A stretch of 64,000 bases of DNA, from IMG/VR virus record IMGVR_UViG_3300049573_000219, positions 32,001-96,000 of that record. One strand, written 5' to 3'. The DNA is from a virus. Its lineage: Duplodnaviria > Caudoviricetes. The stretch's first letter is position 1. Each line of letters opens with the position of its first letter. Below, in pieces: positions 20,208 to 50,527 of the stretch. The notes beneath the pieces were generated by a model that did no database searches, was not told the origin of the DNA, and worked only from the letters and a program-made list of their open reading frames with translations. Both the position numbers and the translations under genes were made by a program.

Positions 20208-20273
20208 CTCTTCTCCGTTTCCGTGAGATTCCACGGCGAAGGCCCGGCTGCGGCCGGGCCCCACCGAAGCCCC

Positions 20274-20807
20274 TCAGACGGTGCAGTCGGTGTCCTTGGC
20301 GGCCAGGTACTGTGCCACCCTGACCAGATCCTCCGGCGCGCAGACATGACCCTCGGCCGCCTCGCCGAGCGCGCTCAGCTTGGGGTCCTCATCCCCGTAC
20401 GTGAGGTTCGTGTCGCAGCGCTCGCAGACCATGCTCACCTGGCTGGCGTAGAGCTGGAAGGCGGTCATTCCGGCCGGTCCGTTCAGCCGCATCGCCCACC
20501 AGCGACAGATCCGCAGCAACCAGTCCGGCGTCTGCGAATCCTCCTCCAGCGGGTTCACGAACGTGGCGTCGTAGTGCCGCTTCGTCGGGTTCCCGCTGGA
20601 GGCATGCACCTTCGGGCCGCGCACGAGCGCCAGGCCGACCGACCACTCCTGACCTTCCGGAAACGCCTGGATCAGCACGTGAACCGGGCGCACCGTCGGC
20701 GAGCCGGGAAGGTTCGGGTTGTGCGTGTCGGGTGCCCCCTCGACGTCGAGGGTCAGCTTCAGGATCGACAGCTCGTCCTCGTTGACCGTGACCTTCACGT
20801 CGTTCAC
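20274..20807 (-). CDS. Hypothetical protein with C-terminal CxxC/H motif
   Basis: Coupled ORF. Confidence 0.7.
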   Translation of the reverse strand: MNDVKVTVNEDELSILKLTLDVEGAPDTHNPNLPGSPTVRPVHVLIQAFPEGQEWSVGLALVRGPKVHASSGNPTKRHYDATFVNPLEEDSQTPDWLLRICRWWAMRLNGPAGMTAFQLYASQVSMVCERCDTNLTYGDEDPKLSALGEAAEGHVCAPEDLVRVAQYLAAKDTDCTV

Positions 20808-21025
20808 TTCTTCGCCCCTTCCTCGGCCGCCTTCAGTACGGCCAACAGGTCTCTGCGGTCGACGGCGTACAGCCGGTACGGCCAGCCGGGGGAGCGGTAC
20901 TTCTCCGAACTCCCGATCTCGCTGGCCACATTCACGTCGTTCGGATGCTGCTCCAGCCAGAGGCGGATCCGGCCGACGGCCGCGCCGACATCCTCGCCGG
21001 GACGCATCTCAGGGTTGTCACTCAT
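20804..21025 (-). CDS. Hypothetical protein
   Basis: ATGA coupling; MSDNPEMR... Confidence 0.6.
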   Translation of the reverse strand: MSDNPEMRPGEDVGAAVGRIRLWLEQHPNDVNVASEIGSSEKYRSPGWPYRLYAVDRRDLLAVLKAAEEGAKK

Positions 21026-21327
21026 GCCGCCGCCAGGAACTTCAGTTCCGGCCGGACGCACGCCTGGCGGACCAGCATGGCCAGCGGCTGCGTACCGGCG
21101 GTGACCAGACCCACCAGGCTGGAGGCGTACCGGTGCTCGAAGCCGCGCGCCAGCAGCTTGCTGAACACGTCGGCCCGCACCACCCGGTCGGCGCCCGGCA
21201 GGCGGCGCAGGAGTGCGTACAGGTGAAGGAACTCCTCCCGGTCCATCGCCGAGTTCTCCGGGGTGCTGCCGGTGATCAGCTCGATCCGGAGAAGTTCCAT
21301 CTGGGGCGTGCCGCTGTCGATCCTCAC
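21022..21327 (-). CDS. Hypothetical protein
   Basis: GTGA coupling. Confidence 0.6.
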   Translation of the reverse strand: MRIDSGTPQMELLRIELITGSTPENSAMDREEFLHLYALLRRLPGADRVVRADVFSKLLARGFEHRYASSLVGLVTAGTQPLAMLVRQACVRPELKFLAAA

Positions 21328-21950
21328 TCCTGACCCTCCTTGCCGTTGTCGATGACCAGAACCTCCGGGTCCCAGCCACCGTCGGCCCGGTCGATGTAGC
21401 AGGCGACCGAGGTGACGGACTGCCCGCGCGTCACCGCACGGGCGGGAGCCAGGACGGAGCCGACGTAGAACCCCTTCTTGGCGTTGTTGCGGATCCGAAC
21501 CTTCTCGCTCTGAGCCTGCGACTCGTTGAAGGTGTCACCGGTACGGCGCCCCTCATCGTCCAGGAGTGACCAGAAGGACCCGTACTGGCCGTAGACCTCA
21601 CGCGCCGGGACCAGCTTGCCCTCCAGGTCGAAGAGGGCCGGGAACTCCCACATGCCGCCGTTCTCGGCGATGTCGGCCTGGAGCCTGTACTTCTGGGCGT
21701 TGATCCCACTCGCCCACTGCGAGAGGGCACCGTCGGTGTCGCACCGGTCGAACGAGTCGGCCGCCTCCCGGTCCCTTCCGCGCGCCAGCTCGCGCAGTTC
21801 CTCGGCCTTCCTCCGGGCCGCCTCCACGTCGTACTGGAATCCGACCTGAGCGGCGAACGGGAGGTTCAGCCCCAGCTCCTCGGCCAGCTCCTTCGCCAGG
21901 GCCGTCTCCTCGTCGCGGGTCATCGCCACGTTCTTCTCCTCTTCCGTCAT
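21324..21950 (-). CDS. Conserved phage hypothetical protein
   Basis: DSFDRCDTDGALSQWA motif; true start may lie about 20-27 nt downstream. Confidence 0.75.
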   Translation of the reverse strand: MTEEEKNVAMTRDEETALAKELAEELGLNLPFAAQVGFQYDVEAARRKAEELRELARGRDREAADSFDRCDTDGALSQWASGINAQKYRLQADIAENGGMWEFPALFDLEGKLVPAREVYGQYGSFWSLLDDEGRRTGDTFNESQAQSEKVRIRNNAKKGFYVGSVLAPARAVTRGQSVTSVACYIDRADGGWDPEVLVIDNGKEGQE

Positions 21951-22141
21951 TCGATGATGAAGGTCCCGACGCTGACGGACTCGACGCCGAACTGCTCGGC
22001 GGTCTCCGCCAGGATCTTCGGGTCCCTGAAGTTCTCCCGCTCGACCTCGGCCCGGTCGGCGGGCGTCTCGCTCTCGGGGTACAGGTCCGGGTCGACCGGG
22101 AACTTCAGGACGACCGTGACCCGCATGAACTCCTGCGGCAT
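21947..22141 (-). CDS. Small hypothetical protein
   Basis: Coupled ORF. Confidence 0.6.
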   Translation of the reverse strand: MPQEFMRVTVVLKFPVDPDLYPESETPADRAEVERENFRDPKILAETAEQFGVESVSVGTFIIE

Positions 22142-22142
22142 G

Positions 22143-22598
22143 TCATCCTTCCGGCTCGTCGAGTCCGTAGACGTAGACCACGGAGAAGTTGTCAGCCAGC
22201 CAGAACTGCACCCGCCGGGCGACCAGGGCCTTCGGCAGGCCGCCGAGCCCGCACCCCAGGGCGGGGACGGCCACCGAGATCAGGCCCGTCGTGTCCAGGT
22301 ACTCCTTCAGGGCGGCCAGCCCCAGGTCCACGTCCTCGATCCGAGAGTTGTCCCGCCAGTGCCGCTTGGTGGCGATGCTCAGGATCCGGCGCCCGTCCGG
22401 CAGGACCGCGTCGTGCACCCGGCCGGGCCGCATCTTGCCCTCCCGGCAGAAGGTCACGTACTCCTCCACCTGGGCAGGCCACCGGTCCCGGAACTGCCGG
22501 GCCAGACCGGCGCCCGGGACGCCGATGCAGTTGACCGGGTTGACCAGACCCTGCGCCTGCGATTCCAGGAGGTTCCCGCTGGTCCAGATCAGCGGCAT
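22143..22598 (-). CDS. Macrodomain ADP-ribosylhydrolase (DarG/Poa1p-like)
   Basis: GNLL...NPVNCIGVPGAGLARQF...ATKRHWR...PALGCGLGGL. Confidence 0.88.
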   Translation of the reverse strand: MPLIWTSGNLLESQAQGLVNPVNCIGVPGAGLARQFRDRWPAQVEEYVTFCREGKMRPGRVHDAVLPDGRRILSIATKRHWRDNSRIEDVDLGLAALKEYLDTTGLISVAVPALGCGLGGLPKALVARRVQFWLADNFSVVYVYGLDEPEG

Positions 22599-22607
22599 GT
22601 CAGCCCT

Positions 22608-22919
22608 TCACCACGCCCGGTAGGGGAAGATCAGGATGTAGATCCCGCCCTCCATGCGGCCGGAGACGACCAGGTTGTTGAGCATGGTGTAGGCATCCGG
22701 CTGCTCTCCGTCGCCGTCTCTCCACGCCCCGATCTGCATGATGTCGGCGATGCTGGGTGCGCAGGTACGGAAGTCGAAGACGATCTTGCGTCCGGCTTCC
22801 GGGTTGCCGGTCCCCTTCAGCAGGTCGTACTCCTTGCCGAACGCCTCCGAGATGAAGTCCTGCATGTCCTTCTCCAGGACCAGGCGTGCCGGGCATTCCT
22901 CGAACTTTGGTGCTCGCAT
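22608..22919 (-). CDS. Hypothetical protein (paralog of 39753-40052)
   Basis: SD; directly downstream of a promoter. Confidence 0.7.
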   Translation of the reverse strand: MRAPKFEECPARLVLEKDMQDFISEAFGKEYDLLKGTGNPEAGRKIVFDFRTCAPSIADIMQIGAWRDGDGEQPDAYTMLNNLVVSGRMEGGIYILIFPYRAW

Positions 22920-22939
22920 TGTCTCTTCCCCTTCCGAAA

Positions 22940-22992
22940 TGGCCTAGGTCACACGATACGCAGAAGGGGCCCCGGCCGCAACCGGAGCCCCT
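22940..22992 (-). promoter_or_regulatory. Promoter TTGCGG-N17-TATCGT, -35 in a hairpin loop, followed by operator TGACCTAGGCCA
   Basis: Read directly from sequence. Confidence 0.65.
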
Positions 22993-23007
22993 GCCGCATG
23001 AGCCGCC

Positions 23008-23331
23008 CTACTCCGGGGCGTCGACCGGCGTTGCCGGGTGCAGCGCGATGCCGGGGACCGAGAGCTTGAGCGCTTCGGTCACCCGGTCGGCGGTGGCCTC
23101 GTCCCGGGTCATGAAGAAGACCGCCTTGCCACCCTTGGCGAGTGAGACGTGAACGATGAAGCCGCCCTCCGGCCCCATCCACTTCTCCTCGTTCTTCAGG
23201 ACGCCGCCCTGGACCTTGGCGTAGCCGCGCTCGGTCAGCGACTGCATGATCTGGTAGTGGTAGTTCTCCTGCGTCGAGAAGACCTTGCTGTCGTTCTCGC
23301 CGAAGGTGTTGACGTAGACGTGTCCGGCCAC
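23008..23331 (-). CDS. Hypothetical protein
   Basis: GGGAG SD. Confidence 0.7.
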   Translation of the reverse strand: MAGHVYVNTFGENDSKVFSTQENYHYQIMQSLTERGYAKVQGGVLKNEEKWMGPEGGFIVHVSLAKGGKAVFFMTRDEATADRVTEALKLSVPGIALHPATPVDAPE

Positions 23332-23423
23332 TGTTTTCTCCCATTCCGCACTCTCTGACGACCATCGTCAGGCAGGGCTCCCATTCGCCCCACGACCCCC
23401 TCTCAGGGGTTTCGGTCCCGGGG

Positions 23424-23657
23424 TCAGATCTTCAGGCCGCGCCGGGCGGCGGCGAGCACCACCCGGATGGCGTGCTCCTCGCCGGACCGGACCGCACTCT
23501 CCAGTCGCAGGTGAGTGAGTTCGTCGGACAGCTCGGGGCTCGCCGACAGGGATCCCATCATGAGGTTGGCGAACCACATCCGGGACTCCTCTCCCAGGTC
23601 CGGAAGGACCACGCCCAGCCCCCTGGCGATCCCCTCTGCGGTAGGGATTCCGCTCAC
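23424..23657 (-). CDS. Hypothetical protein
   Basis: GTGA coupling. Confidence 0.55.
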   Translation of the reverse strand: MSGIPTAEGIARGLGVVLPDLGEESRMWFANLMMGSLSASPELSDELTHLRLESAVRSGEEHAIRVVLAAARRGLKI

Positions 23658-24145
23658 TGCGCGCCCTCCCGCTCCCGGTGCCAGGCGGCACGTTCCGCGT
23701 TCAGCCTCTCCTCGGCCTCGGCCAGTACGGCGGCCAGCCGGTAGATGTCGGCCAGCCCCTCACTCCCGAGGGAGCTGAGGCTGATCAGGTTGCGCACGCC
23801 CATGTAGGCGGACGTGACGGAGAAGCAGCCGGGACTGCGCGTGCACGGCTTGTGCGTTCCACGGTCGAGCTGACCGAGATCCCGCCGAAGCTCCTCGGCG
23901 TGCCGGAGCTTGCGCCGCGCCCGCCCCTCCGGCAGCACGTACGTCCGGAGGGCTTCGGCCTGCGGGTGCTTCGGGTCGACGACCCACCCCTCCCGCTCGA
24001 TGTAGGCGCGCATGCCCTCGATGTAGGCGGTCGCGATCTTCCGCATCGCAGGGTAGGCGCGGTTCCACAGGTCGGCCAGGTGCTCGGCGTCGGCGTAGCT
24101 GAAGTGTCCTGTGTCGTGAACGAGTTCGACGTTGAGCACGTTCAC
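23654..24145 (-). CDS. Hypothetical protein
   Basis: GTGA coupling; MNVLNVELV... Confidence 0.7.
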   Translation of the reverse strand: MNVLNVELVHDTGHFSYADAEHLADLWNRAYPAMRKIATAYIEGMRAYIEREGWVVDPKHPQAEALRTYVLPEGRARRKLRHAEELRRDLGQLDRGTHKPCTRSPGCFSVTSAYMGVRNLISLSSLGSEGLADIYRLAAVLAEAEERLNAERAAWHREREGAQ

Positions 24146-24447
24146 CCCTCCAGCTCGCTGAAGCTCTCGTTCTCCCGGATGCGCTCGATGGACTCCGCCG
24201 GGCTCATCCCGGAGGTGACCATCTCGTAGAAGCTCATCTTGCTCTCGGGGTTCTTGACCCCGAGCAGCACGAGGATCTTCCACAGGGCGGTCGTGATGTG
24301 GTGGTACGGGGTACCCTTCGCGCTGTTCTCGATGACCAGGTCGTACTCGTCGATCACGTTCCAGCGGTAGAGCAGGTCGACCAGCTCACCGGCCGCAGCC
24401 AGCAGGTGGATCTCCCGCATGTCCAGCTTCTCGTTCGTGTTCGCCAT
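24142..24447 (-). CDS. Hypothetical protein
   Basis: GACGGAAGGGG SD. Confidence 0.7.
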   Translation of the reverse strand: MANTNEKLDMREIHLLAAAGELVDLLYRWNVIDEYDLVIENSAKGTPYHHITTALWKILVLLGVKNPESKMSFYEMVTSGMSPAESIERIRENESFSELEG

Positions 24448-24543
24448 GGCTACTTCCCCTTCCGTCCGGCCGCCTTGCGGCGGTCCCTCTCACTCTTCTT
24501 CATTGCCGCGATGGCCACCAGGGCGGCAAGCGCCCGGATCACC

Positions 24544-24870
24544 TCAGTCACGCGCCGCACCCCTTTTGCCCTGCTCGATGATCTGCTGCATCAGCTCCAG
24601 CCCCGTCCTCTCGCCCGCCGTTCCCGGCGTCATGGCGCGGCCCCACCTGGCGGCCTCGTAGAACGCCTCCAGCGCCCGCCATTCGACGGTCACCGTGATC
24701 AGACACGAGCCGCCGCACTCCGGCCAGGTGCAGTGCTTCCCGTGAGGACCCGGCGCCCGCTTCGGGTACAGGGGCGGCTCGTCCCGCTCGGGCGGAGGGG
24801 GGCAGGTGCAGGGTTCGCTTCCGACGCCCGTGCAGCAGGTGCCGCCGCACCCCCGGCAGGTGTAGCTCAT
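24544..24870 (-). CDS. Cys-rich hypothetical protein
   Basis: MSYTCRGCGGTCCTG...; ATGA coupling. Confidence 0.6.
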   Translation of the reverse strand: MSYTCRGCGGTCCTGVGSEPCTCPPPPERDEPPLYPKRAPGPHGKHCTWPECGGSCLITVTVEWRALEAFYEAARWGRAMTPGTAGERTGLELMQQIIEQGKRGAARD

Positions 24871-25289
24871 CGACGGCTCTCCCTGATGTCCATCCCGGCC
24901 CGACAGTGCGGGTATCCGGGGCACGGCTTCATGATCGGTCGTACCGGGTTCCACCCAGGAGATTCCGGCTGGCCGTGGTGTGGACAGACCATCTTCGACG
25001 GGAAGTAGCCGTCGAATTTCTCGTGGTCAGGGTCCAGCATGTTCAGCAGCCCCTCGACCAGCATGATGACGTCCCTGGGGTAGCCGCCACTCCTCTCGGA
25101 GGCCAGAGTGAAGGCGCGGCGCATGTCCTCGGCCGCCTCACGCATCCCAGCCTCGGCGACCCGCTGCTGGTACGACAGGATCACGTCCTCCGGGAACACG
25201 GCACGCAGGAAGTCGGCCACCTGATCGGGCTTCGCCCTCCAGCCCGGCGTCCTGATCGTGATCTCGTCCCAGCTCTCGACGTCACTCAC
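24867..25289 (-). CDS. Hypothetical protein
   Basis: Coupled ORF. Confidence 0.65.
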   Translation of the reverse strand: MSDVESWDEITIRTPGWRAKPDQVADFLRAVFPEDVILSYQQRVAEAGMREAAEDMRRAFTLASERSGGYPRDVIMLVEGLLNMLDPDHEKFDGYFPSKMVCPHHGQPESPGWNPVRPIMKPCPGYPHCRAGMDIRESRR

Positions 25290-25512
25290 CCTCGTTCCCC
25301 TCCTTCGGCTTCAGCTCCCACCGACGGTGGGACCAGCACCAGACCATGGCCGGGAGTGGCGGAACGCCCTCCGGGAGCCACGTCTGTTCGACCTCCGGCG
25401 TCTCGTGCCGGTCCAGACCCGTGTAGTCCAGCTCCTCCAGGACGCAGTCCTCGCCGGGCTCCGGTGTCTCCCGTTCGACCTGCGCGACCAGGTCGGCGCC
25501 GCTCGTCTTCAC
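25282..25512 (-). CDS. Hypothetical protein
   Basis: GTGA coupling; MKTSGADL... Confidence 0.55.
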   Translation of the reverse strand: MKTSGADLVAQVERETPEPGEDCVLEELDYTGLDRHETPEVEQTWLPEGVPPLPAMVWCWSHRRWELKPKEGNEGE

Positions 25513-25841
25513 AGCGCCGCCTTCGCGACCCGGATCATGCGGTCGAACTCCTCGGGGGTGATGAGTCCGGCCGTCGTCCACAGTGCCGGGTGACCGGCCA
25601 TCGCCTCGGTGATGACCTGCCGGGTGACCGGCACGGACTCGCCGGTCAGATAATCCCGGAGGTCGATCCCGCCGATGTAGGTGTCGTACAGGTCGGTCCG
25701 GCGCACGAACTCGTCGATCGTGTCCTTGTCGATCCTGCGGATCCCGGTCGCACCGGTCAGGTAGACCACGGCCCGCTGCTCCGGGGTCATGTCGGTGAGC
25801 GGGATCGTCCCGCCCTTGTTCGTTTCGAAGTACGCCTGCAT
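25509..25841 (-). CDS. Hypothetical protein (paralog of 33118-33486)
   Basis: Strong SD. Confidence 0.7.
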   Translation of the reverse strand: MQAYFETNKGGTIPLTDMTPEQRAVVYLTGATGIRRIDKDTIDEFVRRTDLYDTYIGGIDLRDYLTGESVPVTRQVITEAMAGHPALWTTAGLITPEEFDRMIRVAKAAL

Positions 25842-25947
25842 CTCTCTCTTCTCCCTTCCTCTGCCCGACGGCAGTACGGCAGGTGCACGGACCGGAGTCC
25901 GTGCACCACCGAGCTGAAGCCGGATCAGCTACCGCAGACCGCTGCGG

Positions 25948-26538
25948 TCACTTGCCCTGCGCCTTCCAGTAGGCGTTCTCGGCGGCGTGGATCTGGTCAC
26001 CGAACGCCTTGCCGACGGCCCACGCCTCGTCGCGGCGGCCGTTGAAGAAGTGGTCGGCCACCTGGGAGGCGATGTGCACCGTGGCGACCGTGAGCGAGGA
26101 CCAGTTGAAGCCCCAGAAGGCGCCGCCCTGGTGCGGCAGCAGCTTCTCGTTCGTGGTGTAGCCGAGCGAGCAGAACGTGGTGGCGAACTGCTCGCACTGG
26201 TCGCGGTCGTCCACCTGGTAGAAGGGGCGGGTCGTGATCTTCTTGCCCCAGAGCGAGCCGTTGTCGATGTGCAGGGTCTGGCGCTTGCTGGTGCGGTCCT
26301 CCAGCGGGACCGGGAAGTCGGTCCCCTCCGGGTAGAACGTGACCAGTCCGCTCAGCTCGGGCTCGATGGACATGGCCATGATCCAGCCACCCTTACGGGC
26401 GCGGGGCTTCTTGCTCTCCGGCATCTCCGCGTACGGCCACGCCGAGGTCTTCCGGACGCCCTTCAGCGGGGTGATGATGCGTGCACCCATCGTGATCTTC
26501 TCCTTGTTCCAGGTCTCGTGCGTTGCGGTAGTCGTCAC
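25948..26538 (-). CDS. Hypothetical protein
   Basis: GC3 bias; alternative start at 26490. Confidence 0.7.
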   Translation of the reverse strand: MTTTATHETWNKEKITMGARIITPLKGVRKTSAWPYAEMPESKKPRARKGGWIMAMSIEPELSGLVTFYPEGTDFPVPLEDRTSKRQTLHIDNGSLWGKKITTRPFYQVDDRDQCEQFATTFCSLGYTTNEKLLPHQGGAFWGFNWSSLTVATVHIASQVADHFFNGRRDEAWAVGKAFGDQIHAAENAYWKAQGK

Positions 26539-26589
26539 CCCACCGGGCCGCCATCCGGCCCGGCAGGTTCCCGCCCTGACTCCCGGCGC

Positions 26590-26829
26590 TCAGCCAGGAC
26601 TTGAGCCAGGACGCCTCGAACTCTTCGGCGAGCCGTAGAGCCCGCCCCTGATCCATCTCTCGGCGATGGGACCCTCGTCCCCGTACCGGAAGGCGTCCTC
26701 CCGGAACTTCGACGACAGGGCCTTCTGCTCCTCCAGGCCCAGGTCGCTCCAGCTCGGTCTGCGCCCAGCTCGGGCGACGGAATCCCGCCATAGCGCTTCG
26801 AACTCCTCGGATTTACCGGCACTGTTCAC
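26590..26829 (-). CDS. Hypothetical protein
   Basis: GAGGA SD. Confidence 0.5.
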   Translation of the reverse strand: MNSAGKSEEFEALWRDSVARAGRRPSWSDLGLEEQKALSSKFREDAFRYGDEGPIAERWIRGGLYGSPKSSRRPGSSPG

Positions 26830-26852
26830 CGGGTCATCCTCTCGCGGAGTTC

Positions 26853-27164
26853 TCAGCCGGGGCGCCGCTCCAGCAGAACCGAGACGAACATGTCGGCCGT
26901 CACGTTGGGGACCAGCTCGCCGTCGTCGGCCAGCACCTCCCAGCCACCCCGGGTGCCGACCTCGGTGATCCGGCCCCGGTAGAAGGTGCCGTGCTCCTCC
27001 CGGACGGCGACCCTCACGATCCGGTCCGAGTAGTCGTTGGCGGCCGACCAGACCGCCGAGACGACCTCCTGGTTGACGGGGGAGCGGAACTCCTCGAACT
27101 GCTCCAGGGTGGCAGCGGCCTGCTTCAACTCGGTGGCCAGTCGGCCGATGTGGGTCTGGGCCAT
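26853..27164 (-). CDS. Hypothetical protein
   Basis: TGATG coupling; MAQTHIG... Confidence 0.65.
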   Translation of the reverse strand: MAQTHIGRLATELKQAAATLEQFEEFRSPVNQEVVSAVWSAANDYSDRIVRVAVREEHGTFYRGRITEVGTRGGWEVLADDGELVPNVTADMFVSVLLERRPG

Positions 27165-28405: not shown

Positions 28406-28456
28406 TGACCTAGGCCATCGTACAGCGAAGGGGCCCGCCGTCAAGCGAGCCCCTTC
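28406..28456 (-). promoter_or_regulatory. Promoter TTGACG-N16-TACGAT, -35 in a hairpin loop, followed by operator TGGCCTAGGTCA
   Basis: Read directly from sequence. Confidence 0.65.
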
Positions 28457-29691: not shown

Positions 29692-29765
29692 GGTTCTTCT
29701 CCTCCGTTCCGATGGTCCACCGAGGGGCACGGACCGCAGCCCGTGCTCCCCGGAAGCCGACCGGC

Positions 29766-36158: not shown

Positions 36159-36233
36159 GCTTCCTTCTCCTTCCGTCCGATGTGCACTGGACGCCGGGAA
36201 CCCACAGACTCCCGGCGTCCCGAACGCACCGGC

Positions 36234-37649: not shown

Positions 37650-37732
37650 GATCACCTCCCTTCCACTCACACCGCTCACGAGCGGCGCTCTCGGGCCCCC
37701 GGCCGCAGCCGGTTGCCCTGGGGCGCCTCCCG

Positions 37733-38080: not shown

Positions 38081-38159
38081 CTTCTCCCTCTCCGTCCGCT
38101 CGTTCGAGCGGCACTCCCGGGTGCCCGGCCGGAGCCGGGCACCCTAGGGTGCCTCCCGT

Positions 38160-39067: not shown

Positions 39068-39161
39068 CTCTTCCCTCTCCTCATCCGTCGTCCGTGTTGC
39101 ACCGCCCGGCAACACTCCCGGGCCCCCGGCCTTCCGGCCGGGAACCCTAGGGCGTCTCCGC

Positions 39162-40415: not shown

Positions 40416-40502
40416 GCTCTTCTCCGTTTCCGTCTCAACGTTCACCGTCCGACACGGCACGTCAGCGGCCGATCCCGGAGGACCGGCCGCTCCCGAACCC
40501 GT

Positions 40503-40519
40503 CGGCCTAGGCCAGGTTA
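40503..40519 (-). promoter_or_regulatory. -10 TAACCT overlapping operator TGGCCTAGGCCG
   Basis: Repeated motif. Confidence 0.5.
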
Positions 40520-42015: not shown

Positions 42016-42099
42016 CTTCCCTTCCATCTTCCGTACGTCCCACCGTGGGACACAGGCGCGCACGAGCCCCCTCCCGTGCGCCCCTGAATCACGCGGTGA

Positions 42100-42882: not shown

Positions 42883-42961
42883 GTTTTCCGTTCTCCCTTC
42901 CGTCCGTGGTCCACGGTGGGGCACCCGGTCTCCCGGATGCCCGCCCGAAGCACGCGGATGG

Positions 42962-43518: not shown

Positions 43519-43911
43519 TTACGCGTCGCCCTCGGCGGCGTTGATCAGCTCCTGCGCCCGCTCGGCGCCGCGCAGCTCCCATCGGCCGTAGTCCTCCCGC
43601 TCGGCCGCCGTGGCGCCGTATCGGGAGTACGCCACCTGAACGGCCAGAAGGAACTCGCCGTCGTCCCCGTTGGGCTCGATGCCCATCAGGGACAGGTACC
43701 GCATGGCGGCCGACGTGTAGAACGCGCACGCCTGCCGGGCTCCCTGCGGTCCGTACCACGTGAGCTGATCCCGCGCGTCGGCGTACGACGTCCCGTGCTC
43801 CGGGTGCGAGCCGACCGGCCCCAGCTTGAACATGCCGTCGGTGATCCGCTCGACCCGGGCCGTCACCTCCCGCACGAACGCCCCCGTGAACTTGATTCGC
43901 TCCGATTCCAC
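43519..43911 (-). CDS. Hypothetical protein
   Basis: GACGGAAGGGAG SD. Confidence 0.7.
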   Translation of the reverse strand: MESERIKFTGAFVREVTARVERITDGMFKLGPVGSHPEHGTSYADARDQLTWYGPQGARQACAFYTSAAMRYLSLMGIEPNGDDGEFLLAVQVAYSRYGATAAEREDYGRWELRGAERAQELINAAEGDA

Positions 43912-44020
43912 CCTTGATCTCCCTTCCGTCTGGTTCATGACCATTCGTCCGATCAGGAACACACTGGAAGATTCGGAACGCGCCCGGAAGCGCCTTCCGA
44001 ATCCTCCCGAATGCCTCAGA

Positions 44021-44149
44021 TCAGGCGCCGAACGTGCGTCGGTAGGCTTCCCGGGCCTCCCGTGCCGACCGGCGCACCGCCTTCCACTGATGCCGCAGGG
44101 TCACGGCACCGCCCACCACCACGAGACCGGCGACGACGTAGCCGATCAC
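44021..44149 (-). CDS. 42-aa membrane micro-protein MIGYVVAGLVVVGGAVTL...
   Basis: GTGA coupling; TM helix plus basic tail. Confidence 0.5.
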   Translation of the reverse strand: MIGYVVAGLVVVGGAVTLRHQWKAVRRSAREAREAYRRTFGA

Positions 44150-44418
44150 GCGTCGAACACCAGGAAGACGTCCCGGTCGGGCGTCCCCCGGTCCCACACC
44201 GGCCGCCGCCCCGTGCCCTGTGCCAGCAGCAGCAGACCGGCAACGTGCTCCGTCGCCTCCCGGCCCTCGACCGGGTTCCCGTTGCGCTTGATCGGCAGCG
44301 GGAGCGCCAGGGTGGCGCCCGTGCGCGTGTCCCGGGCCGTCAGGCCCCGCGACTTACTCCCCGCCGGACCGACCTCCGTGCCCCGGACGATGATCTCTCG
44401 CGGCTTCTCCTGCGTCAT
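44146..44418 (-). CDS. Hypothetical protein
   Basis: GGAGAGGA SD. Confidence 0.65.
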   Translation of the reverse strand: MTQEKPREIIVRGTEVGPAGSKSRGLTARDTRTGATLALPLPIKRNGNPVEGREATEHVAGLLLLAQGTGRRPVWDRGTPDRDVFLVFDA

Positions 44419-44450
44419 GCTGCGTTCCTCTCCCTCGTTGCCGGGCCCGT

Positions 44451-44669
44451 TCAGGCCCGGAAGTTGTAGCCCATCAGGCGCTCGTGGATCATCCGCACGG
44501 CGGGCCGGTCGGCCAGCTCCCGCGCGACCTCCGCGTGCGCCTCCATGTCGTCGTCCGGGAGCACGTGACGGGGGCGGCTGAACTCTCCCGCCCCGCCCTC
44601 CGTGATCACGGCCTTGACCTTCTCCGGCTCCGTGGCGGTCGGCGCCACCCGGTACGTCCAGATGATCAC
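44451..44669 (-). CDS. Hypothetical protein
   Basis: AGGAGG SD; GTGA coupling. Confidence 0.65.
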   Translation of the reverse strand: MIIWTYRVAPTATEPEKVKAVITEGGAGEFSRPRHVLPDDDMEAHAEVARELADRPAVRMIHERLMGYNFRA

Positions 44670-45154
44670 GCCGTGACCTCCTTGTGGATCAGCGCCCACC
44701 CGTACGCCTGAGACTCGGGGTCGTAGTCGGCGTGTTCGCAGCGCTCCCGCTCCGTCCACTCCTGGCACGGCATCCCGTCCTCCCCGGCGCCGCACGTGGG
44801 CGGGTGCATCTCGACCGAGACGATCGCCCACAGTCCCGGCGTCTCGCGGATGTGGTCCTCCAGGTCCCGCCCGAAGTGCTGCCGTCCCGGGTCGAACGCG
44901 AACAGCGATCCCGCCCCGGCCCACCCGGTGAGCACTCGCCACCCGTTCTCGACCCCGGCGATGGCCGCCCGCTCGTGGTCCTCCAGCACGTCCGGCATCT
45001 CCCAGTCGCCCGACCAGTCGATGTCGATGGACTCCGGCGCGTAGTCCTCCAGCCGCGCGGGCGGGTACGCGGCCGTCTCGAACGTCCCGTCAGGCTTGAC
45101 AAGGATCGGCAACGCGCTCGGCCCGTGCAGCGCCTCATCCAGCGTCTCGGCCAC
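44666..45154 (-). CDS. Acidic hypothetical protein
   Basis: GACGGAAGGGAG SD. Confidence 0.7.
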   Translation of the reverse strand: MAETLDEALHGPSALPILVKPDGTFETAAYPPARLEDYAPESIDIDWSGDWEMPDVLEDHERAAIAGVENGWRVLTGWAGAGSLFAFDPGRQHFGRDLEDHIRETPGLWAIVSVEMHPPTCGAGEDGMPCQEWTERERCEHADYDPESQAYGWALIHKEVTA

Positions 45155-45241
45155 GGTTCATTTCTCCCTTCCGTCCGGACCGTCCGGCACCACGGACCCG
45201 CACGGAATCGCTCCCGTGCAGGCCCGAAGCACTGCGCTCCG

Positions 45242-45481
45242 TCACCGTTCCCGCAGGTCGTCGCCGTGCGTGTAGCTGAACCTGGTCCCGGCGACGTGTA
45301 TGGAGTATCCGTCGCCGTTCGACACGTCCTCTCCCAGCTCATCGAGCCGGTCCAGAATCCGCTCCAGCTCCCCGTACGCCTCCCGGATCTGCACCCGCGC
45401 CGGGTCGGCCGCCAGTTCGTCACGCTCCCGCTGGAGTCGGGCGATCTGTGCGTCTATCGCCTTCAGCTTGTCGCCGCTCAC
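45242..45481 (-). CDS. Small coiled-coil protein
   Basis: GGAGGGG SD. Confidence 0.65.
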   Translation of the reverse strand: MSGDKLKAIDAQIARLQRERDELAADPARVQIREAYGELERILDRLDELGEDVSNGDGYSIHVAGTRFSYTHGDDLRER

Positions 45482-45494
45482 GTGCGCCCCTCCC

Positions 45495-45953
45495 TCACAT
45501 CCACACCGGCACGATCCGGTGCCCCTGGTTGGCGGCCAGGAATGCCATCCGTTCGGCCCGGCTGCTCATCCCCTCCGCGTCCGTCGGCCGGTTCAGGGTC
45601 ATGCGCAGCCGGGACAGGGTGGTCCCCTCCAGGACCGGCGCGTCCCATGTCCACAGGGTGACCAGCCGTACCGTCTCGCTCGCTTCCGCCTCCCGGCTCT
45701 GCGAGACCTCGCAGAGCGATCCCGGGATCATGTAGTGCTTGCCGATGCACACGCGCGGCTCGTCCTCGACCGCCTTGTGCAGCAGCTCTTGCATGTGCCC
45801 GAGGTGATTCGACAGGCCGATGTATCCCTGCCAGTCGGGATCCGTCCCGTCGCCCGTCTCGGGAGACAGGAACAGGTCGGCCGCGCCCGCGCGTCCCGCC
45901 GTCCACAGCCACCGCTTACCGGCCGGGAGCCGGTACAGGTATGTGTGCTTCAC
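45495..45953 (-). CDS. Hypothetical protein
   Basis: GTGA coupling; MKHTYLY... Confidence 0.65.
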   Translation of the reverse strand: MKHTYLYRLPAGKRWLWTAGRAGAADLFLSPETGDGTDPDWQGYIGLSNHLGHMQELLHKAVEDEPRVCIGKHYMIPGSLCEVSQSREAEASETVRLVTLWTWDAPVLEGTTLSRLRMTLNRPTDAEGMSSRAERMAFLAANQGHRIVPVWM

Positions 45954-46195
45954 GCCTGCCTCACCTCGTGCTGCGTGTCGCCGTCCAGTACGACGACCTC
46001 GCCCTTGACCAGCACGTACGGCGTCGAGCCGTTCCCGTAGGCCATCGCGTACACCCGGCGCCACACCCCCAGGTACTCGACCATGTGCGCCGTCGGGATC
46101 TTCCCGCCGTACCCCGTCACGGTCTGCCCGCTCACCGGCACATCCGTGACCTTGACTCCCGTCACGCTGGCCGGTTCCGTGTACTGCACCGTCAT
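45950..46195 (-). CDS. Conserved phage hypothetical protein
   Basis: TGYGGKIPTAHMV...WRRVY motif. Confidence 0.7.
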   Translation of the reverse strand: MTVQYTEPASVTGVKVTDVPVSGQTVTGYGGKIPTAHMVEYLGVWRRVYAMAYGNGSTPYVLVKGEVVVLDGDTQHEVRQA

Positions 46196-46497
46196 GCCGT
46201 CACCTCTCCCATGCCCGGCTCCCGCACCGCTTCCGTCACGCGCGCCAGGAACGCGGCGCTCACCGCCGGGAAGTCGTCCGACGCCATCGCGGCGCGGATC
46301 CTCCCGTCGGTCGTCACGACCCACACGCCGTAGCGCGTGCGGCCGTTGCCTCCCGTGCGCAGGGTCAGCAGCGTCCCCGCGACCCCGTAGCCACCGTGAA
46401 AGACCTTGAACACGTGATGCACGTCAGCCCGCGCATCCGCGATCTCGTCCCCCGGCTGCATGTGCACGCGCACCGGTTCCGTCGTCGTCGCCCTCAC
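46192..46497 (-). CDS. Hypothetical protein
   Basis: GACGGAAGGGAG SD. Confidence 0.65.
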   Translation of the reverse strand: MRATTTEPVRVHMQPGDEIADARADVHHVFKVFHGGYGVAGTLLTLRTGGNGRTRYGVWVVTTDGRIRAAMASDDFPAVSAAFLARVTEAVREPGMGEVTA

Positions 46498-46588
46498 GTT
46501 TCCCTCTCCCTTCCGTCGAGCCGTCACCACACGGACGGATGCGGGACCGTGGCCCCGCGCCCGCCCGAACAGCGGCGCCCCGTGAGCG

Positions 46589-47212
46589 TCAGACCGTCGG
46601 CCGGTTGGCCGTGATCAGGTCGAACAGCGGGTGCGGCTCCCACTTCCGGTTGCCGTCGGCGTCCGTGCCCGGGTACGTCGGCCGCTCACCCTTGCACTCC
46701 CGCAGCGTGCGGCGCAGGGTCGCAATGTCGACGTCCGTGTACGCCCGGATCAGAGCCAGGTCGATCTCCGTCTCCAGCATGATCCGGCGCGCGGCCTCCC
46801 GGTTCCCGTTCCGCCGGGCGCTCTCCGCGTGCTCGTCGTTCGTGACCGTGGACAGGGCCAGGGAGTACTCCCAGTACCGCACGGAGTCGTCCACGAGCAT
46901 CGTGTCCATGTCGCCCCCGCGCTTCACCGCGCGCAGGATGCGGGACCGCTCCGTGATCAGGGCCAGGAACTTCCCCCGGTCCATGCCGTCCTCCCACAGG
47001 TCCGACCACGTCGGCCGGATCCCGCGCACGTCAGCGCCGTTCGCGTAGCTGTGCGCCATGTGCGCCATGTGACGCCACATGGTCACCGCGTCCTGCGACT
47101 CCTGCCCCAGGTAGCCGGGCTGTCCCGGACCGGGGCGCCCGTCGTGCTTCCGGCGCGTGTTGATCAGCAGGTCGGCCAGCAGACCATGGAATTCCTCAAC
47201 CGTGCGACCCAT
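46589..47212 (-). CDS. Hypothetical protein
   Basis: GGAAGGGAG SD; MGRTVEEF... Confidence 0.7.
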   Translation of the reverse strand: MGRTVEEFHGLLADLLINTRRKHDGRPGPGQPGYLGQESQDAVTMWRHMAHMAHSYANGADVRGIRPTWSDLWEDGMDRGKFLALITERSRILRAVKRGGDMDTMLVDDSVRYWEYSLALSTVTNDEHAESARRNGNREAARRIMLETEIDLALIRAYTDVDIATLRRTLRECKGERPTYPGTDADGNRKWEPHPLFDLITANRPTV

Positions 47213-47276
47213 CGCGTTCTCCCTTCCGGCCGGGCCCGTCATGGGCCCGGCATCCGTCCGTCACTTCCGTGCGTTG

Positions 47277-47558
47277 CTACGCGGCGAGACCCATCCGGTA
47301 CGGGTCCGGCGACCACTCCCGCGTCTGCCCGTCGTGGTGCTCGTACGTCACCGTGACGTCGTGAAGGACCAGCTTCCCGCCCTCCGTCGCGTACGTGGTG
47401 TGGATCTCCAGTTGGGTACCGGAGTTCAGGTTGTTGCGCAGCCTCCCCATGATCAGGTCGGCCACCTGCTCATCCGTGGCGAACCGCAAGGGCACATACT
47501 CACCCGTGATGCACTCCGTGCACCCGCAGTCCCACGGGTCAACGGCGATCAGCTTCAC
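47277..47558 (-). CDS. Hypothetical protein with CGCxEC motif
   Basis: GTGA coupling. Confidence 0.65.
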   Translation of the reverse strand: MKLIAVDPWDCGCTECITGEYVPLRFATDEQVADLIMGRLRNNLNSGTQLEIHTTYATEGGKLVLHDVTVTYEHHDGQTREWSPDPYRMGLAA

Positions 47559-47824
47559 CTACGCCACCGGATCCCTTCCCCGAAGTGGGAGTCACAGGTC
47601 TGCGGGGTGTGGTGCCCCTCTCCCGGACATCCCCGGAACCGGCGCCCGTGCAGCCTCTCCCACAGGGAGTAGGCGCCGTTCGTCACGTTCCTCTTGATCA
47701 GGTCGACGAACGCGTACGACAGCCCGAGGGAGGCCCGGGAGTACAGTTCCTGCCCGTCCGCGTCCCGCAGTACCGCGCGCCCGTCCTCCGTGAGGGAAAC
47801 CGTCATGATGACATGCTCATCCAT
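47555..47824 (-). CDS. Hypothetical protein
   Basis: MDEHVIMT...; operon position. Confidence 0.55.
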   Translation of the reverse strand: MDEHVIMTVSLTEDGRAVLRDADGQELYSRASLGLSYAFVDLIKRNVTNGAYSLWERLHGRRFRGCPGEGHHTPQTCDSHFGEGIRWRR

Positions 47825-47826
47825 GA

Positions 47827-48264
47827 TCAGATCCCGTTGCTCCGGCGGGGCGCTCCCGTGTTCACGAGACCGATCATTTTCCGGCACGCCCGGCACGTCA
47901 CGCCCGTGAGCGCCGTCCCCGACGACCAGACCGACAGGGAGTTCCCCAGGTTCCGGGACGCCGGGCACAGACCGGCCGGAGGCTGGCCAGGCACGTGGTT
48001 GAGCAGCGCGTGCCCCTGCGTGTCCCTCCCGGGCACCTTGCCGTACTCCTGCGTGCGGAACGTGGCCACGCCGACGACCAGCGTCCCGTCCGCCCCGGGG
48101 AAGTGCCGGTTCCCGTCCGTGTCGTACAGGAACTGTTCCTGCGGCACCCGCCCGTCACGGCTCCCCGGCGTCCAGCCGTCCAGGTCGGCGATCACGAAAC
48201 CGCCCGCCGTCTGGAGCAGCGAACCGCGCCTGATGTCGTCGATCCTCTGTCGCGTCGTGTCCAT
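47827..48264 (-). CDS. Hypothetical protein with C-terminal H/C Zn motif
   Basis: GACGGAAGGGAG SD; VTCRAC. Confidence 0.65.
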   Translation of the reverse strand: MDTTRQRIDDIRRGSLLQTAGGFVIADLDGWTPGSRDGRVPQEQFLYDTDGNRHFPGADGTLVVGVATFRTQEYGKVPGRDTQGHALLNHVPGQPPAGLCPASRNLGNSLSVWSSGTALTGVTCRACRKMIGLVNTGAPRRSNGI

Positions 48265-48339
48265 GCTTCCCGTTCTCCCTTCCGTCGGTAATGCACTGGA
48301 CCGCCCGGCCCCCTTCCGGGCAGTCCCGAACGTCACCGC

Positions 48340-48675
48340 TCAGACAGGCCGCTCGACACACAGCAGGTCGACCCGGTGAAGGTAGGTCTCCTCCGTGGTG
48401 CCGTCGTCGTTCTTGAACGTGACCGTGATCGTCCCGGGGTCCGCGTCGCCGCCCGTGCGCACCACGGAAACGATCTCCCGCATCTTGTCGCGGCTCCCGT
48501 ACGCGCGCCACGTGTCCGTGGGCGGGTGCATGTAACCGGCCCGCGTCCGCTCGATCCGGGGCCGGATGTTCTCGGCGTCCATCCCGCGCAGTCCGATGAT
48601 CTTCTCGAAGTCCCGCGCGTGCTCACTCGCCCGTGCGAGCGCTTCCCCGGGCTTCAGGTAGTCGTACGTCGCCAT
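48340..48675 (-). CDS. Hypothetical protein
   Basis: GACGGAAAGAGGG SD; MATYDYL... Confidence 0.7.
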   Translation of the reverse strand: MATYDYLKPGEALARASEHARDFEKIIGLRGMDAENIRPRIERTRAGYMHPPTDTWRAYGSRDKMREIVSVVRTGGDADPGTITVTFKNDDGTTEETYLHRVDLLCVERPV

Positions 48676-48761
48676 GTTCTTCCCTCTTTCCGTCGTCCGG
48701 TCGTGCACTGGAATGCCGGGCCCCCTCCCGGCACTCCCGAACGCGGCCGTGCGCCCGTGTG

Positions 48762-49160
48762 TCAGTCCTGCGGCGTCTCGCGGTACGTGCTGAACGACGC
48801 GACCGCCGTGCGGATCTTGTTCATGCCGGTCACGGTCGTCTGCGACTCGGCGTCGAAACCGAGCGTCCCGCGCGCCGGGATCGTCCACGTGCCGTCAGCG
48901 TTGCGCCAGGCGATCGGCGTCTCGTAGCTGAACACCACGTAGGTGGACCGGGCCGCTTCCGCGTGCCACTCCCGCGCGAGTCGGCCGACCTCCGACGGAC
49001 GGGATCCCGCCGACCCCGGGCGCCCGCTCAGGTGGCCGGACGTCTCGAACGGCTTGCCGTCCTTCAGGACCGCCGCGTACGCCTCCCACCGCGCGTCACG
49101 GAGCACCTTGCCGTCGCGCCACGTCGTGACCTTCGCGTTCAGCTTGACCGTCTCACCCAT
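48762..49160 (-). CDS. Conserved phage hypothetical protein
   Basis: YVVFSYETPIAW...SQTT motif. Confidence 0.7.
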   Translation of the reverse strand: MGETVKLNAKVTTWRDGKVLRDARWEAYAAVLKDGKPFETSGHLSGRPGSAGSRPSEVGRLAREWHAEAARSTYVVFSYETPIAWRNADGTWTIPARGTLGFDAESQTTVTGMNKIRTAVASFSTYRETPQD

Positions 49161-49187
49161 GATCTTCTCCCTCTCCGTATTCCCGTT

Positions 49188-49212
49188 CGGCCTAGGCCGC
49201 TGCCCGATCATA
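49188..49212 (-). promoter_or_regulatory. -10 TATGAT with downstream operator CGGCCTAGGCCG
   Basis: Repeated motif. Confidence 0.5.
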
Positions 49213-49273
49213 GACCGGCTGGAACGCCCGGAGGACCCGGGCGCTCCCGTCCGCCTACATCGTGACCCGTTCG

Positions 49274-49630
49274 TTACTTCCCGCAGGTCTCGCAGCGCGC
49301 GGGCGGCGTGTCCTTCTTGACCCACACCGCCGGGCCCGTCTCCCGCAGCGCCTCCCGCGCGCCGTTCAGGTCCGTGTCGTACCGGATCATGTCGCGCGTG
49401 TTCGAGATGTCGATCACGTTCGGGTCGTCCGTCTCCCGGATCTGCCAGACGTCCAGGCCGCCCGGCCGCGACTCCACCGCAAGCGCCTTACCGGGGCCCA
49501 TCATCAGCATGACGCCGTACCCGTCCGGCCGCATGACGTGAACCGAGTCCTGGCGCTCACCCTTGAACGGTCCCGTCACGACCGCGCCGAACTCCAGCGA
49601 GAGGTGACCCGCGATCTGCATGAGATCCAC
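49274..49630 (-). CDS. Hypothetical protein
   Basis: GACGGAAGGGAG SD. Confidence 0.7.
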   Translation of the reverse strand: MDLMQIAGHLSLEFGAVVTGPFKGERQDSVHVMRPDGYGVMLMMGPGKALAVESRPGGLDVWQIRETDDPNVIDISNTRDMIRYDTDLNGAREALRETGPAVWVKKDTPPARCETCGK

Positions 49631-49717
49631 TTCCGTACTCCCTTCCGTCCGTTCCCGTGAATCGGGAACCCACGGGGAACGTCCCGCCGCAGCGGAACGC
49701 CCCCGAAGATCACCGGT

Positions 49718-50083
49718 TCAGTCGCCGATCGAGTAGTAGTTCTCCCGGGTGCACGTGGCGCACGTCGTGCGGTCCCCCCACGCTTCCTGTCGCGTGGTGA
49801 CGATCCCGCGCCCGTCCGCGTCCGGGTGCTCCCCGACCTCCGTACGCGTCTCGTACGGCCAGCACGCGGCGCAACGGCGGATCGGTTCGGGCCGGTCGAC
49901 CGGGAACCCCTCGTGCGTCTCGGGGTCCTTCCCGTAGTAGCGGCGGCACGGCTCCCCCTCGTGGGCGAACACGTACTGCGGGAAGCCGTACCGCTTTTCC
50001 GTGCCGACCAGCCGGACCGGCTGACCACACCCCCGCTCCGAACAGCGGAGCTGCCAGACGATCGTCAGGTTGTTGGTGCTCAT
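49718..50083 (-). CDS. Zn-ribbon protein
   Basis: Three CxxC-type motifs. Confidence 0.65.
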   Translation of the reverse strand: MSTNNLTIVWQLRCSERGCGQPVRLVGTEKRYGFPQYVFAHEGEPCRRYYGKDPETHEGFPVDRPEPIRRCAACWPYETRTEVGEHPDADGRGIVTTRQEAWGDRTTCATCTRENYYSIGD

Positions 50084-50117
50084 TCCGTTTCTCCCTCTCC
50101 TCGTTCCCGTCAGCCGG

Positions 50118-50435
50118 TCACCCCTTGCGCTGCTCCATGCGCGGCTTGCGGCCGGTCTCCGTGACCAGCTCCCACCCGCACGCCTGCTGTTCCGCGAGGA
50201 TCGTCCGGCCCCGGGCCGTCAGCCGCAGGTCTTCGAACTCCCGGCCCGCCAGTACGCCCACGTCGATCAGCTTCAGGACCGTATCGGCGCGCGGGTTGGA
50301 CTTCGTCCCGTGGCCCCGCTCCATGGACGCGATGACCGACGGGCTGAACCCGCCGCCCAGCGAGTAACTGACGCGTGCGTGCGGACTGTCGACCAGGAAC
50401 ATCACGAGCCGTCCGGCCGCAGAAAGTTTCGCCAT
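50118..50435 (-). CDS. Possible winged-helix protein
   Basis: TVLKLIDVGVL...LRLTARGR. Confidence 0.6.
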   Translation of the reverse strand: MAKLSAAGRLVMFLVDSPHARVSYSLGGGFSPSVIASMERGHGTKSNPRADTVLKLIDVGVLAGREFEDLRLTARGRTILAEQQACGWELVTETGRKPRMEQRKG

Positions 50436-50527
50436 GATCGTTTCTCCCTCTCCTCGTGTCCATCCGCGATAGACAGGCTGGAGCGCCCCGGCCCCCTTCC
50501 GGGGCGCTCCCGTCCGCCGGTCCCGGA

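What the first reader, a model, noticed from the sequence alone, without database searches (positions are those of the whole stretch)
20232..50520. Family of >=12 intergenic RNA hairpins with a conserved, covarying UUCNG...CN'GUG base
Seen: between a stop codon and the next SD, the - strand repeatedly reads 5'-UUC-N-G-[26-30 nt stem-loop, once 40]-C-N'-GUG-3'. Plus-strand coordinates: 20232-68, 29718-55, 36185-224, 40458-97, 42051-88, 42912-49, 43962-44011, 45191-228, 46530-69, 48294-330, 48706-41, 49671-707. Variants lie at 25875-913, 32340-74, about 49217-55 and about 50476-520. The inner stem sequence differs freely but length is conserved. N/N' covaries: G-C in most, A-U at 42051, C-G at 29718, and a fixed G-A mismatch in the 36185/43962/48294/48706 subgroup. 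Wobbles are G-U on the mRNA strand and there are no U-tracts. Established: T7 early mRNA is cut by RNase III at intergenic hairpins, and lambdoid nut/put elements are RNA antitermination signals. Inference: a dedicated mRNA processing, stabilisation or antitermination code for the 45-kb early arm. Alternatively these are cassette-boundary recombination sites that help shuffle small genes.
Basis: partly seen in the sequence, partly recalled or inferred. Interest (0 to 1): 0.75.

Follow-up and report, generated by a model that had tools for sequence, protein, structure and literature searches.

The report
Conserved intercistronic RNA hairpins, Streptomyces phage
Twelve gene-to-gene spacers in the small-gene arm of this 187-kb Streptomyces phage fold, on the mRNA strand, into about 25-step hairpins that share one fixed mismatched "foot"; the family is kept by compensating mutations in seven related phages and is probably a signal for cutting, protecting or binding the long messages, though no experiment has shown this.

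Summary
All 12 listed sites exist as written. All lie on the mRNA-sense strand and in non-coding spacers. A strict motif-plus-hairpin scan finds 11, against 0.8 in shuffles and 0 on the other strand.

A covariance model finds exactly these 12 in the 187-kb genome. It finds 9-14 per genome in six relatives: Frankenweenie, Satis, three IMG/VR phages and a 260-kb phage. It finds none in two unrelated Streptomyces phages and nothing convincing in five host-type genomes.

Across 64 distinct copies, 92% of stem cells pair and covariation is strong. G.U pairs outnumber A.C by 143 to 12, which places the fold on the mRNA strand.

The element is larger than described. An 8-step lower stem, a fixed U.G / U.U / C-G module and a 13-17-step upper stem fill the spacer from stop codon to Shine-Dalgarno.

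There is no U-tract, no room for a promoter and no Rfam match. Synteny breaks are no more frequent here than at other gene junctions.

Best reading, inferred: an RNA signal read by a protein, most likely an RNase III-type processing and stabilising site as in T7.

The scan noted a similar family earlier in a 251-kb Streptomyces phage.

The parts
20224..20276 (-). Family member s20232 (core 20232-20268 plus 8-step lower stem)
   Evidence: R1 41.7 bits; fold -40.1 kcal/mol
29710..29763 (-). Family member s29718; N/N' = C-G
   Evidence: R1 46.7 bits; fold; counterparts in all six relatives
36177..36232 (-). Family member s36185; G.A at N/N'
   Evidence: R1 34.6 bits; G.A kept in the Frankenweenie and Satis counterparts while the stem changes
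40450..40505 (-). Family member s40458, directly 3' of a GGCCTAGGCC site
   Evidence: R1 29.4 bits; motif site at 40504-40513
42043..42096 (-). Family member s42051; N/N' = A-U (G-C in Satis)
   Evidence: R1 46.4 bits; compensatory change in the Satis counterpart
42904..42957 (-). Family member s42912
   Evidence: R1 40.4 bits; fold
43954..44019 (-). Family member s43962, long form (upper arm 20-21 steps); G.A
   Evidence: R1 37.1 bits; length class
45183..45236 (-). Family member s45191
   Evidence: R1 44.1 bits; 93% identical to the Satis copy while both flanks are at background identity
46522..46577 (-). Family member s46530
   Evidence: R1 31.9 bits; fold
48286..48338 (-). Family member s48294; G.A
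   Evidence: R1 45.1 bits
48698..48749 (-). Family member s48706; G.A
   Evidence: R1 39.8 bits
49663..49715 (-). Family member s49671, in a stretch with no counterpart in the relatives
   Evidence: R1 36.8 bits; no HSP and no like element in relatives
25875..25913 (-). Decayed member (CUC...GUA)
   Evidence: Below R1 threshold here; canonical at the matching place in Satis, L002:6282-6331
49217..49255 (-). Sister form with GGAC...GCC foot (G-C and A.C replace U.G and U.U)
   Evidence: same form in relatives, L009:15622-15669 and L002:28764-28811
50476..50520 (-). Sister form with GGAC...GCC foot
   Evidence: R1 22.3 bits, E 0.11 in the own genome

Best explanation
These are cis-acting RNA modules on the polycistronic messages of the leftward small-gene arm. 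Each spacer, from just after the upstream stop codon to just before the next Shine-Dalgarno, folds into one gapless helix of about 25 steps.

The helix has three parts:
- an 8-step lower stem closed by C(-8)-G(+8);
- a fixed non-canonical module: N-N', U.G, a U.U mismatch, C-G, then G-C or G.A;
- a freely varying upper stem of 13-17 steps, usually with a tetraloop.

The structure and the selection on it are shown. The mechanism is inferred. I take the fixed module to be the mark that a double-strand RNA-binding protein reads. The most likely reader is host RNase III (AbsB); an unknown phage protein is the alternative. The long message would then be cut at or next to the mismatch. The upstream piece would end in a protective stem, and the next gene's ribosome site would sit at a defined 5' end, as in the T7 early region.
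For: Strand and structure:
- 92% of cells pair in 64 distinct copies from 7 phage genomes. The covariation score is 0.652 against 0.183 in shuffles, and 15 of 16 pairs show changes on both sides.
- G.U and U.G pairs number 143 against 12 A.C and C.A, so the fold belongs to the mRNA-sense strand.

Fixed module:
- U.G in 62 of 64 distinct copies, C-G in 64 of 64, and the outer pair in 64 of 64 with five pair types. The U.U mismatch was counted on the earlier 54-copy set, where it is in 52 of 54.
- The two exceptions keep a mismatch at the same place.

Lower stem: it pairs at 100, 52, 69, 81, 47, 88, 75 and 94% for steps 1 to 8, against about 35% when the partner is slid.

Distribution:
- 12 copies here and none elsewhere in the 187 kb.
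- 9-14 in each of six relatives, always in one orientation in the same arm.
- None in two unrelated Streptomyces phages.
- Best hit of 30.9 bits in 45 Mb of host-type genomes, and that hit is an ordinary hairpin.

Conservation: elements are on average 90% identical between phages, against 74-75% for the flanks.

Against a terminator or promoter role: no U-tract or promoter at the sites, and 7-8 copies lie in series between two GGCCTAGGYC sites.

Precedent: S. coelicolor RNase III cuts an intergenic hairpin at an internal loop and prefers G-C duplex (PMC10126417).
Against: - No RNA ends, cleavage or binding data exist for any of these phages.
- A 1x1 U.U mismatch is much smaller than the 4/4 loop of the known AbsB site. 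The host rpsO-pnp hairpin shows no UUC/GUG module.
- RNase III is not known to need a fixed sequence, so the invariant module may point to another reader.
- No RNase or RNA-binding protein is annotated in the arm, and ten arm proteins have no Pfam match.
- The host scan scored only 150 candidates per genome.
Confidence: 0.42

Rival explanations
1. Operator or translation-coupling module. The hairpin folds away the whole spacer, which brings the stop codon next to the following ribosome site. The fixed foot would bind a phage or host protein that tunes translation of the downstream gene. This would be a regulon-type post-transcriptional switch, comparable in placement to cluster K SAS/ESAS.
For: - The stop codon ends 0-13 nt before the lower stem, and the Shine-Dalgarno starts a few nt after G(+8).
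- All copies have one orientation and sit upstream of gene starts.
- The element stays with the downstream gene more often (15 comparisons) than with the upstream gene (9) when only one neighbour is replaced.
- ESAS are inverted repeats just upstream of a start-associated motif (PMC3203893).
Against: - The Shine-Dalgarno itself is not sequestered.
- The distance from hairpin to start codon varies from 23 to 45 nt.
- The extended GGAAGGGAG ribosome site is general in the arm and not specific to these genes.
- No candidate binding protein is known.
- The comparisons are not independent.
Confidence: 0.22
2. U-tract-less intrinsic terminators, attenuators or pause sites for host RNA polymerase that grade expression along the arm.
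For: - The hairpins are very stable and G+C-rich (-35 to -46 kcal/mol) and sit directly after stop codons.
- From my own knowledge, not re-read here: Ingham, Hunter and Smith, Nucleic Acids Res 1995, reported phiC31 early-region terminators without poly-U tails.
Against: - There is no U-tract.
- 7-8 copies lie in series with no room for a promoter between the hairpin and the next ribosome site. Efficient termination would therefore silence about 15 genes.
- A terminator needs no invariant U.G/U.U module or an 8-step lower stem.
- Another hairpin class (AAGGGGC...GCCCCUUC) sits beside the promoter-like and GGCCTAGGYC sites.
Confidence: 0.13
3. DNA-level element: short conserved linkers that promote exchange of small genes (PeSL-like), or hairpins in single-stranded DNA used in replication.
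For: - The element is kept at 71-96% identity in 15 comparisons where both neighbouring stretches are at background identity.
- Several homology blocks end at element edges.
- PeSL precedent: PMC2839356 and PMC4122927.
Against: - Breaks are no more frequent here than at other junctions: 2.42 against 2.21 and 2.17 relatives per junction.
- Stem covariation and the 143:12 G.U bias are not needed for recombination.
- The copies differ too much in the stems to be good homology.
- No promoter is part of the element.
- The strict placement from stop codon to Shine-Dalgarno points to gene expression.
Confidence: 0.06

Closest known systems
RNase III processing signals of the coliphage T7 early transcript (R0.3, R0.5, R1, R1.1, R1.3; own knowledge: Dunn and Studier 1983)
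   Same: Intercistronic position on a long early message; about two helical turns; an interruption in mid-helix; several related copies per genome; no terminator tail.
   Different: The interruption here is a 1x1 U.U mismatch beside a U.G pair, with an invariant sequence. The host is an actinomycete and there is no sequence relation. Cleavage is untested.
Extended start-associated sequences (ESAS) of cluster K mycobacteriophages (PMC3203893)
   Same: An actinophage-specific inverted repeat with a variable spacer. One orientation, just upstream of ribosome sites of a subset of genes. Conserved across subclusters beside unrelated genes. Function unknown.
   Different: ESAS arms have a conserved 17-bp consensus and accompany a 13-bp SAS. 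Here the stems vary freely with compensation, and only the foot of five plus five bases and one closing pair are fixed.
PeSL promoter/stem-loop cassettes of T4-type phages (PMC2839356, PMC4122927)
   Same: Repeated intergenic stem-loops among small variable early genes; kept while neighbours are swapped.
   Different: There is no promoter in the element and no excess of exchange endpoints.
S. coelicolor rpsO-pnp intergenic hairpin (Rfam Actino-pnp RF01688), a known AbsB substrate (PMC10126417)
   Same: A long interrupted G+C-rich intergenic hairpin in the host group.
   Different: It has a 4/4 internal loop and no UUC/GUG module. It is a single host locus.

Membership tests
RNase III processing signal (T7 type) | Hairpin of about two helical turns of mostly paired RNA | tested here: met
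   8 + 3 + 13-17 steps, gapless
RNase III processing signal (T7 type) | Lies between cistrons of one transcript | tested here: inconclusive
   Placement from stop codon to ribosome site is shown. That the genes share one transcript is inferred from the lack of promoters.
RNase III processing signal (T7 type) | Cut by RNase III in vivo or in vitro | not testable with these tools
   Needs RNA-end mapping or an enzyme assay
Intrinsic (rho-independent) terminator | U-rich tract directly 3' of the stem | tested here: not met
   None of the sites is flagged, and the 3' flanks carry G/A-rich ribosome sites
Cluster K ESAS | 17-bp inverted repeats with a conserved consensus, next to the SAS GGGATAGGAGCCC | tested here: not met
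   Stems vary freely and there is no SAS sequence. Only the placement is alike.
PeSL cassette | Early promoter fused to the stem-loop; endpoints of indels | tested here: not met
   No promoter-like site and no excess of breaks
REP/REPIN-type repeats | Near-identical palindromic copies with a fixed tag, spread by a RAYT transposase | tested here: not met
   Copies share only the foot. None lies outside one arm. No transposase is annotated in Satis.
lambda nut / HK022 put antiterminator RNA | One or two copies just downstream of a promoter, with a defined loop or two-stem fold | tested here: not met
   12 dispersed copies and no loop consensus. No Rfam match even at E 5.

The most novel reading that the evidence does not exclude
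The U.G / U.U / C-G foot is a private address label of this phage lineage. It would be read by a dedicated phage-encoded RNA-binding or RNA-cutting protein among the many unknown arm genes. That would give the phage regulon-wide, timed control of about a dozen early genes after transcription, independent of host RNase III.
Probability: 0.25. Interest if true: 0.75.

Novelty: new variant of a known kind. Interest (0 to 1): 0.55.

Why it matters
Almost nothing is known about how large actinophages express their long arrays of small unknown genes. A family of 9-14 structured RNA signals per genome, with a defined invariant non-canonical module, gives a concrete handle for that question. The cultured relatives Satis, Kradal and Frankenweenie grow on standard Streptomyces strains, and rnc mutants exist, so the hypothesis is directly testable. 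If the foot is a specific protein site, it could also serve as a compact intercistronic part for Streptomyces operon engineering. The family has no entry in Rfam.

Tried and rejected
- Rfam at gathering and at E up to 5: nothing at the elements.
- tRNA and tmRNA scan: none.
- Phage partner protein: the Satis annotation has no RNA polymerase, sigma factor or RNase III, and ten arm proteins have no Pfam match.
- Cassette-boundary idea: tested by synteny breaks, with no enrichment. The first version of that script chained HSPs wrongly and was redone.
- Host-type motif: a weak negative only, because few candidates were scored.
- A regex hit at genome 19021-19062, outside the window in a plus-strand arm, is not found by the model and looks like chance.
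- The IMG/VR pattern scan gave mostly chance matches, but it led to the 260-kb relative.
- I could not identify the 251-kb Streptomyces phage of the earlier notes, so I cannot say whether its hairpins carry the same foot.
- A literature search for jumbo Streptomyces phages gave nothing useful.
Full report
CONTEXT

The window is bases 32001-96000 of a 187,033-bp virus record with direct terminal repeats, at 67.7% G+C. Its nearest cultured relatives are Streptomyces phages Frankenweenie (cluster BM per PMC10652959) and Satis, Kradal, Quantum and EhyElimayoE.

A codon-position G+C gene caller places about 111 small genes on the minus strand from window 8768 to 60882. The matching arms of Frankenweenie and Satis are annotated in the same orientation, and nearly every gene is 'hypothetical protein'.

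The Satis record has no phage RNA polymerase and no RNase III. Host polymerase therefore presumably transcribes the arm.

OBSERVATION

- A regex for the motif plus at least 10 stem pairs finds 11 on the minus strand of the whole genome. The twelfth site needs a bulge.
- The same scan finds none on the plus strand. In 100 dinucleotide shuffles the mean is 0.78 and the maximum 4.
- All hits lie in spacers, which make up 12% of this part of the arm.
- A covariance model built from the 12 (A1, R1) recovers exactly these 12 in the 187 kb at E below 0.005. The only other hits are weak ones, to one sister copy and to one unrelated site.

ANATOMY

The element is larger than reported.

- The base before UUC always pairs with the base after GUG: 64 of 64 distinct copies, with five pair types.
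- The helix then continues without gaps for 8 steps. Pairing at steps 1 to 8 is 100, 52, 69, 81, 47, 88, 75 and 94%. Slid controls give about 35%.
- A C(-8)-G(+8) pair closes the helix, with C in 55 and G in 52 of 64 copies.
- Above that lies the fixed module. U.G is in 62 of 64 distinct copies and C-G in 64 of 64. The U.U mismatch, counted on the earlier 54-copy set, is in 52 of 54, followed by G-C (24 of 54) or G.A (22 of 54).
- The two exceptions are the GGAC...GCC sister form at 49217 and 50476. They replace U.G by G-C and U.U by A.C, so a mismatch is kept at the same step.
- The upper arm is 13-17 steps in 42 of 48 distinct cores. It is 20-21 steps in the 43962 group.
- The loop is a tetraloop in 32 of 48, with no consensus.
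- Whole elements fold at -35 to -46 kcal/mol.
- The upstream stop codon ends 0-13 nt before the lower stem. The G/A-rich ribosome site begins a few bases after it. The hairpin therefore takes up essentially the whole spacer.

RNA OR DNA, AND WHICH STRAND

In the stems, G.U and U.G pairs number 143 and A.C and C.A only 12. On the opposite strand every G.U would be an A.C mismatch, so the structure is selected on the mRNA-sense strand.

Together with the placement from stop codon to ribosome site, this argues for RNA. Single-stranded DNA of the same strand cannot be formally excluded.

RELATIVES

The model finds these counts, always in one orientation inside the homologous arm:

- 13-14 in Frankenweenie and 11-12 in Satis;
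- 11 in Kradal;
- 11-13 in three IMG/VR phages of 168-192 kb;
- 9-10 in a 259,646-bp IMG/VR phage, whose arm is collinear with this one at 65-85% identity.

On 77 hits (64 distinct), 91.9% of cells pair. The covariation score is 0.652 against 0.183 in shuffles and at most 0.175 when partners are slid. Fifteen of 16 pairs show changes on both sides. The alignment was fitted to the model, which favours the structure. However, the independent MAFFT alignment of the 12 gave the same picture.

Positional counterparts show compensation directly. At 42051, for example, N/N' is A-U here and G-C in Satis.

Elements are on average 90% identical between phages, against 74-75% for 250-nt flanks. About 60% is background for this scoring. 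In 15 comparisons both flanks are at background while the element is kept.

SPECIFICITY

- Two unrelated Streptomyces phages (Gilgamesh and UNTPL) score below 20 bits.
- Five Streptomyces or Kitasatospora genomes (45 Mb) give one 30.9-bit hit, which is an ordinary perfect hairpin. Only 150 first-look candidates per genome were scored, so this negative is rough.
- Rfam has nothing, even at E 5.

WHAT IT IS NOT

Terminator: there is no U-tract. Seven or eight copies lie in series between the GGCCTAGGYC sites at 49189 and 40504, with no room for a promoter between the hairpin and the next ribosome site. A different hairpin class (AAGGGGC...GCCCCUUC) sits beside the promoter-like and GGCCTAGGYC sites.

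Recombination hotspot: 217 of 250 synteny break ends against five relatives fall within 40 nt of some gene junction. However, family junctions (2.42 relatives per junction) do not differ from tight junctions (2.21) or other hairpin junctions (2.17).

Other known kinds: REP-like repeats, nut/put, ESAS and PeSL each fail a defining feature (see membership test).

MECHANISM (INFERRED)

The stems drift freely, yet the non-canonical module stays invariant at a fixed height in a helix of roughly constant length. A trans-acting reader best explains this.

Size, intercistronic position and the mid-helix interruption match RNase III signals of the T7 early transcript (own knowledge). Streptomyces RNase III is known to cut an intergenic hairpin at an internal loop and to prefer G-C duplex (PMC10126417).

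I therefore rank processing and stabilisation first (0.42). The rivals are:

- a translational operator or coupling role (0.22);
- attenuation or pausing (0.13);
- DNA-level roles (0.06).

The remainder is unknown. The host rpsO-pnp hairpin has no UUC/GUG module. The invariant sequence may therefore point instead to a phage-encoded reader among the unknown arm proteins, none of which has a Pfam match.

RELATION TO EARLIER NOTES OF THIS SCAN

The same stretch was noted again in another reading (e1-5753667; its follow-up is withheld). Two follow-ups on a 251-kb Streptomyces phage describe hairpins of about 25 bp with a fixed mismatch box or 'foot', read as T7-like signals (e1-5382481, e1-5382494).

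I could not see their sequences. My finding of the same family in a 260-kb relative makes it plausible, but unproven, that it is one family.

VERDICT

This is a real, strongly supported and apparently undescribed cis-RNA family of a known general kind. Its function is untested.

Noticed in passing
window 18338, 19596, 22941, 28407, 34299, 40504, 49189, 51478: GGCCTAGGYC occurs at 8 intergenic places in the arm (10 strand-matches against 0.2 expected). The sites often lie beside promoter-like hexamers and probably act as operators that divide the arm into operons. Another note of the scan links them to a GntR-type repressor.
   Followed up: partly
window 37680-37732, 38081-38159, 39068-39161, 50939-51063: A second intergenic hairpin family with its own fixed internal loop (GCCCUAGGG ... 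CCCGGGAGUGCC), built on the same plan: lower stem, fixed interruption, free upper stem.
   Followed up: no
window 28417-28444 and 22965-22992: Hairpins of the AAGGGGC...GCCCCUUC type carry a -35-like hexamer in the loop (TTGACG, 16 nt, TACGAT at 28444-28417) and are followed by GGCCTAGGTC. This is a composite of terminator-like stem and promoter, reminiscent of T4 PeSLs.
   Followed up: partly
window 54634-57956: A gene-free stretch of 3.3 kb with lower G+C and many short repeats at the head of the arm. It corresponds to the region next to the genome end in Satis and Frankenweenie.
   Followed up: no
window 11030-54714 (ten genes): None of the ten largest proteins tested in the arm (189-666 aa) has any Pfam match at E 0.01.
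   Followed up: partly
window 23353-23417, minus strand: Sub-threshold Rfam match to Hammerhead_II (24 bits against a gathering score of 37, E 0.87). Probably chance.
   Followed up: no
L175/L176 (IMGVR_UViG_3300049141_000098, 170001-210000): A complete 259,646-bp phage with terminal repeats shares a collinear small-gene arm with this 187-kb phage at 65-85% identity. The lineage therefore spans genomes from 187 to 260 kb.
   Followed up: partly
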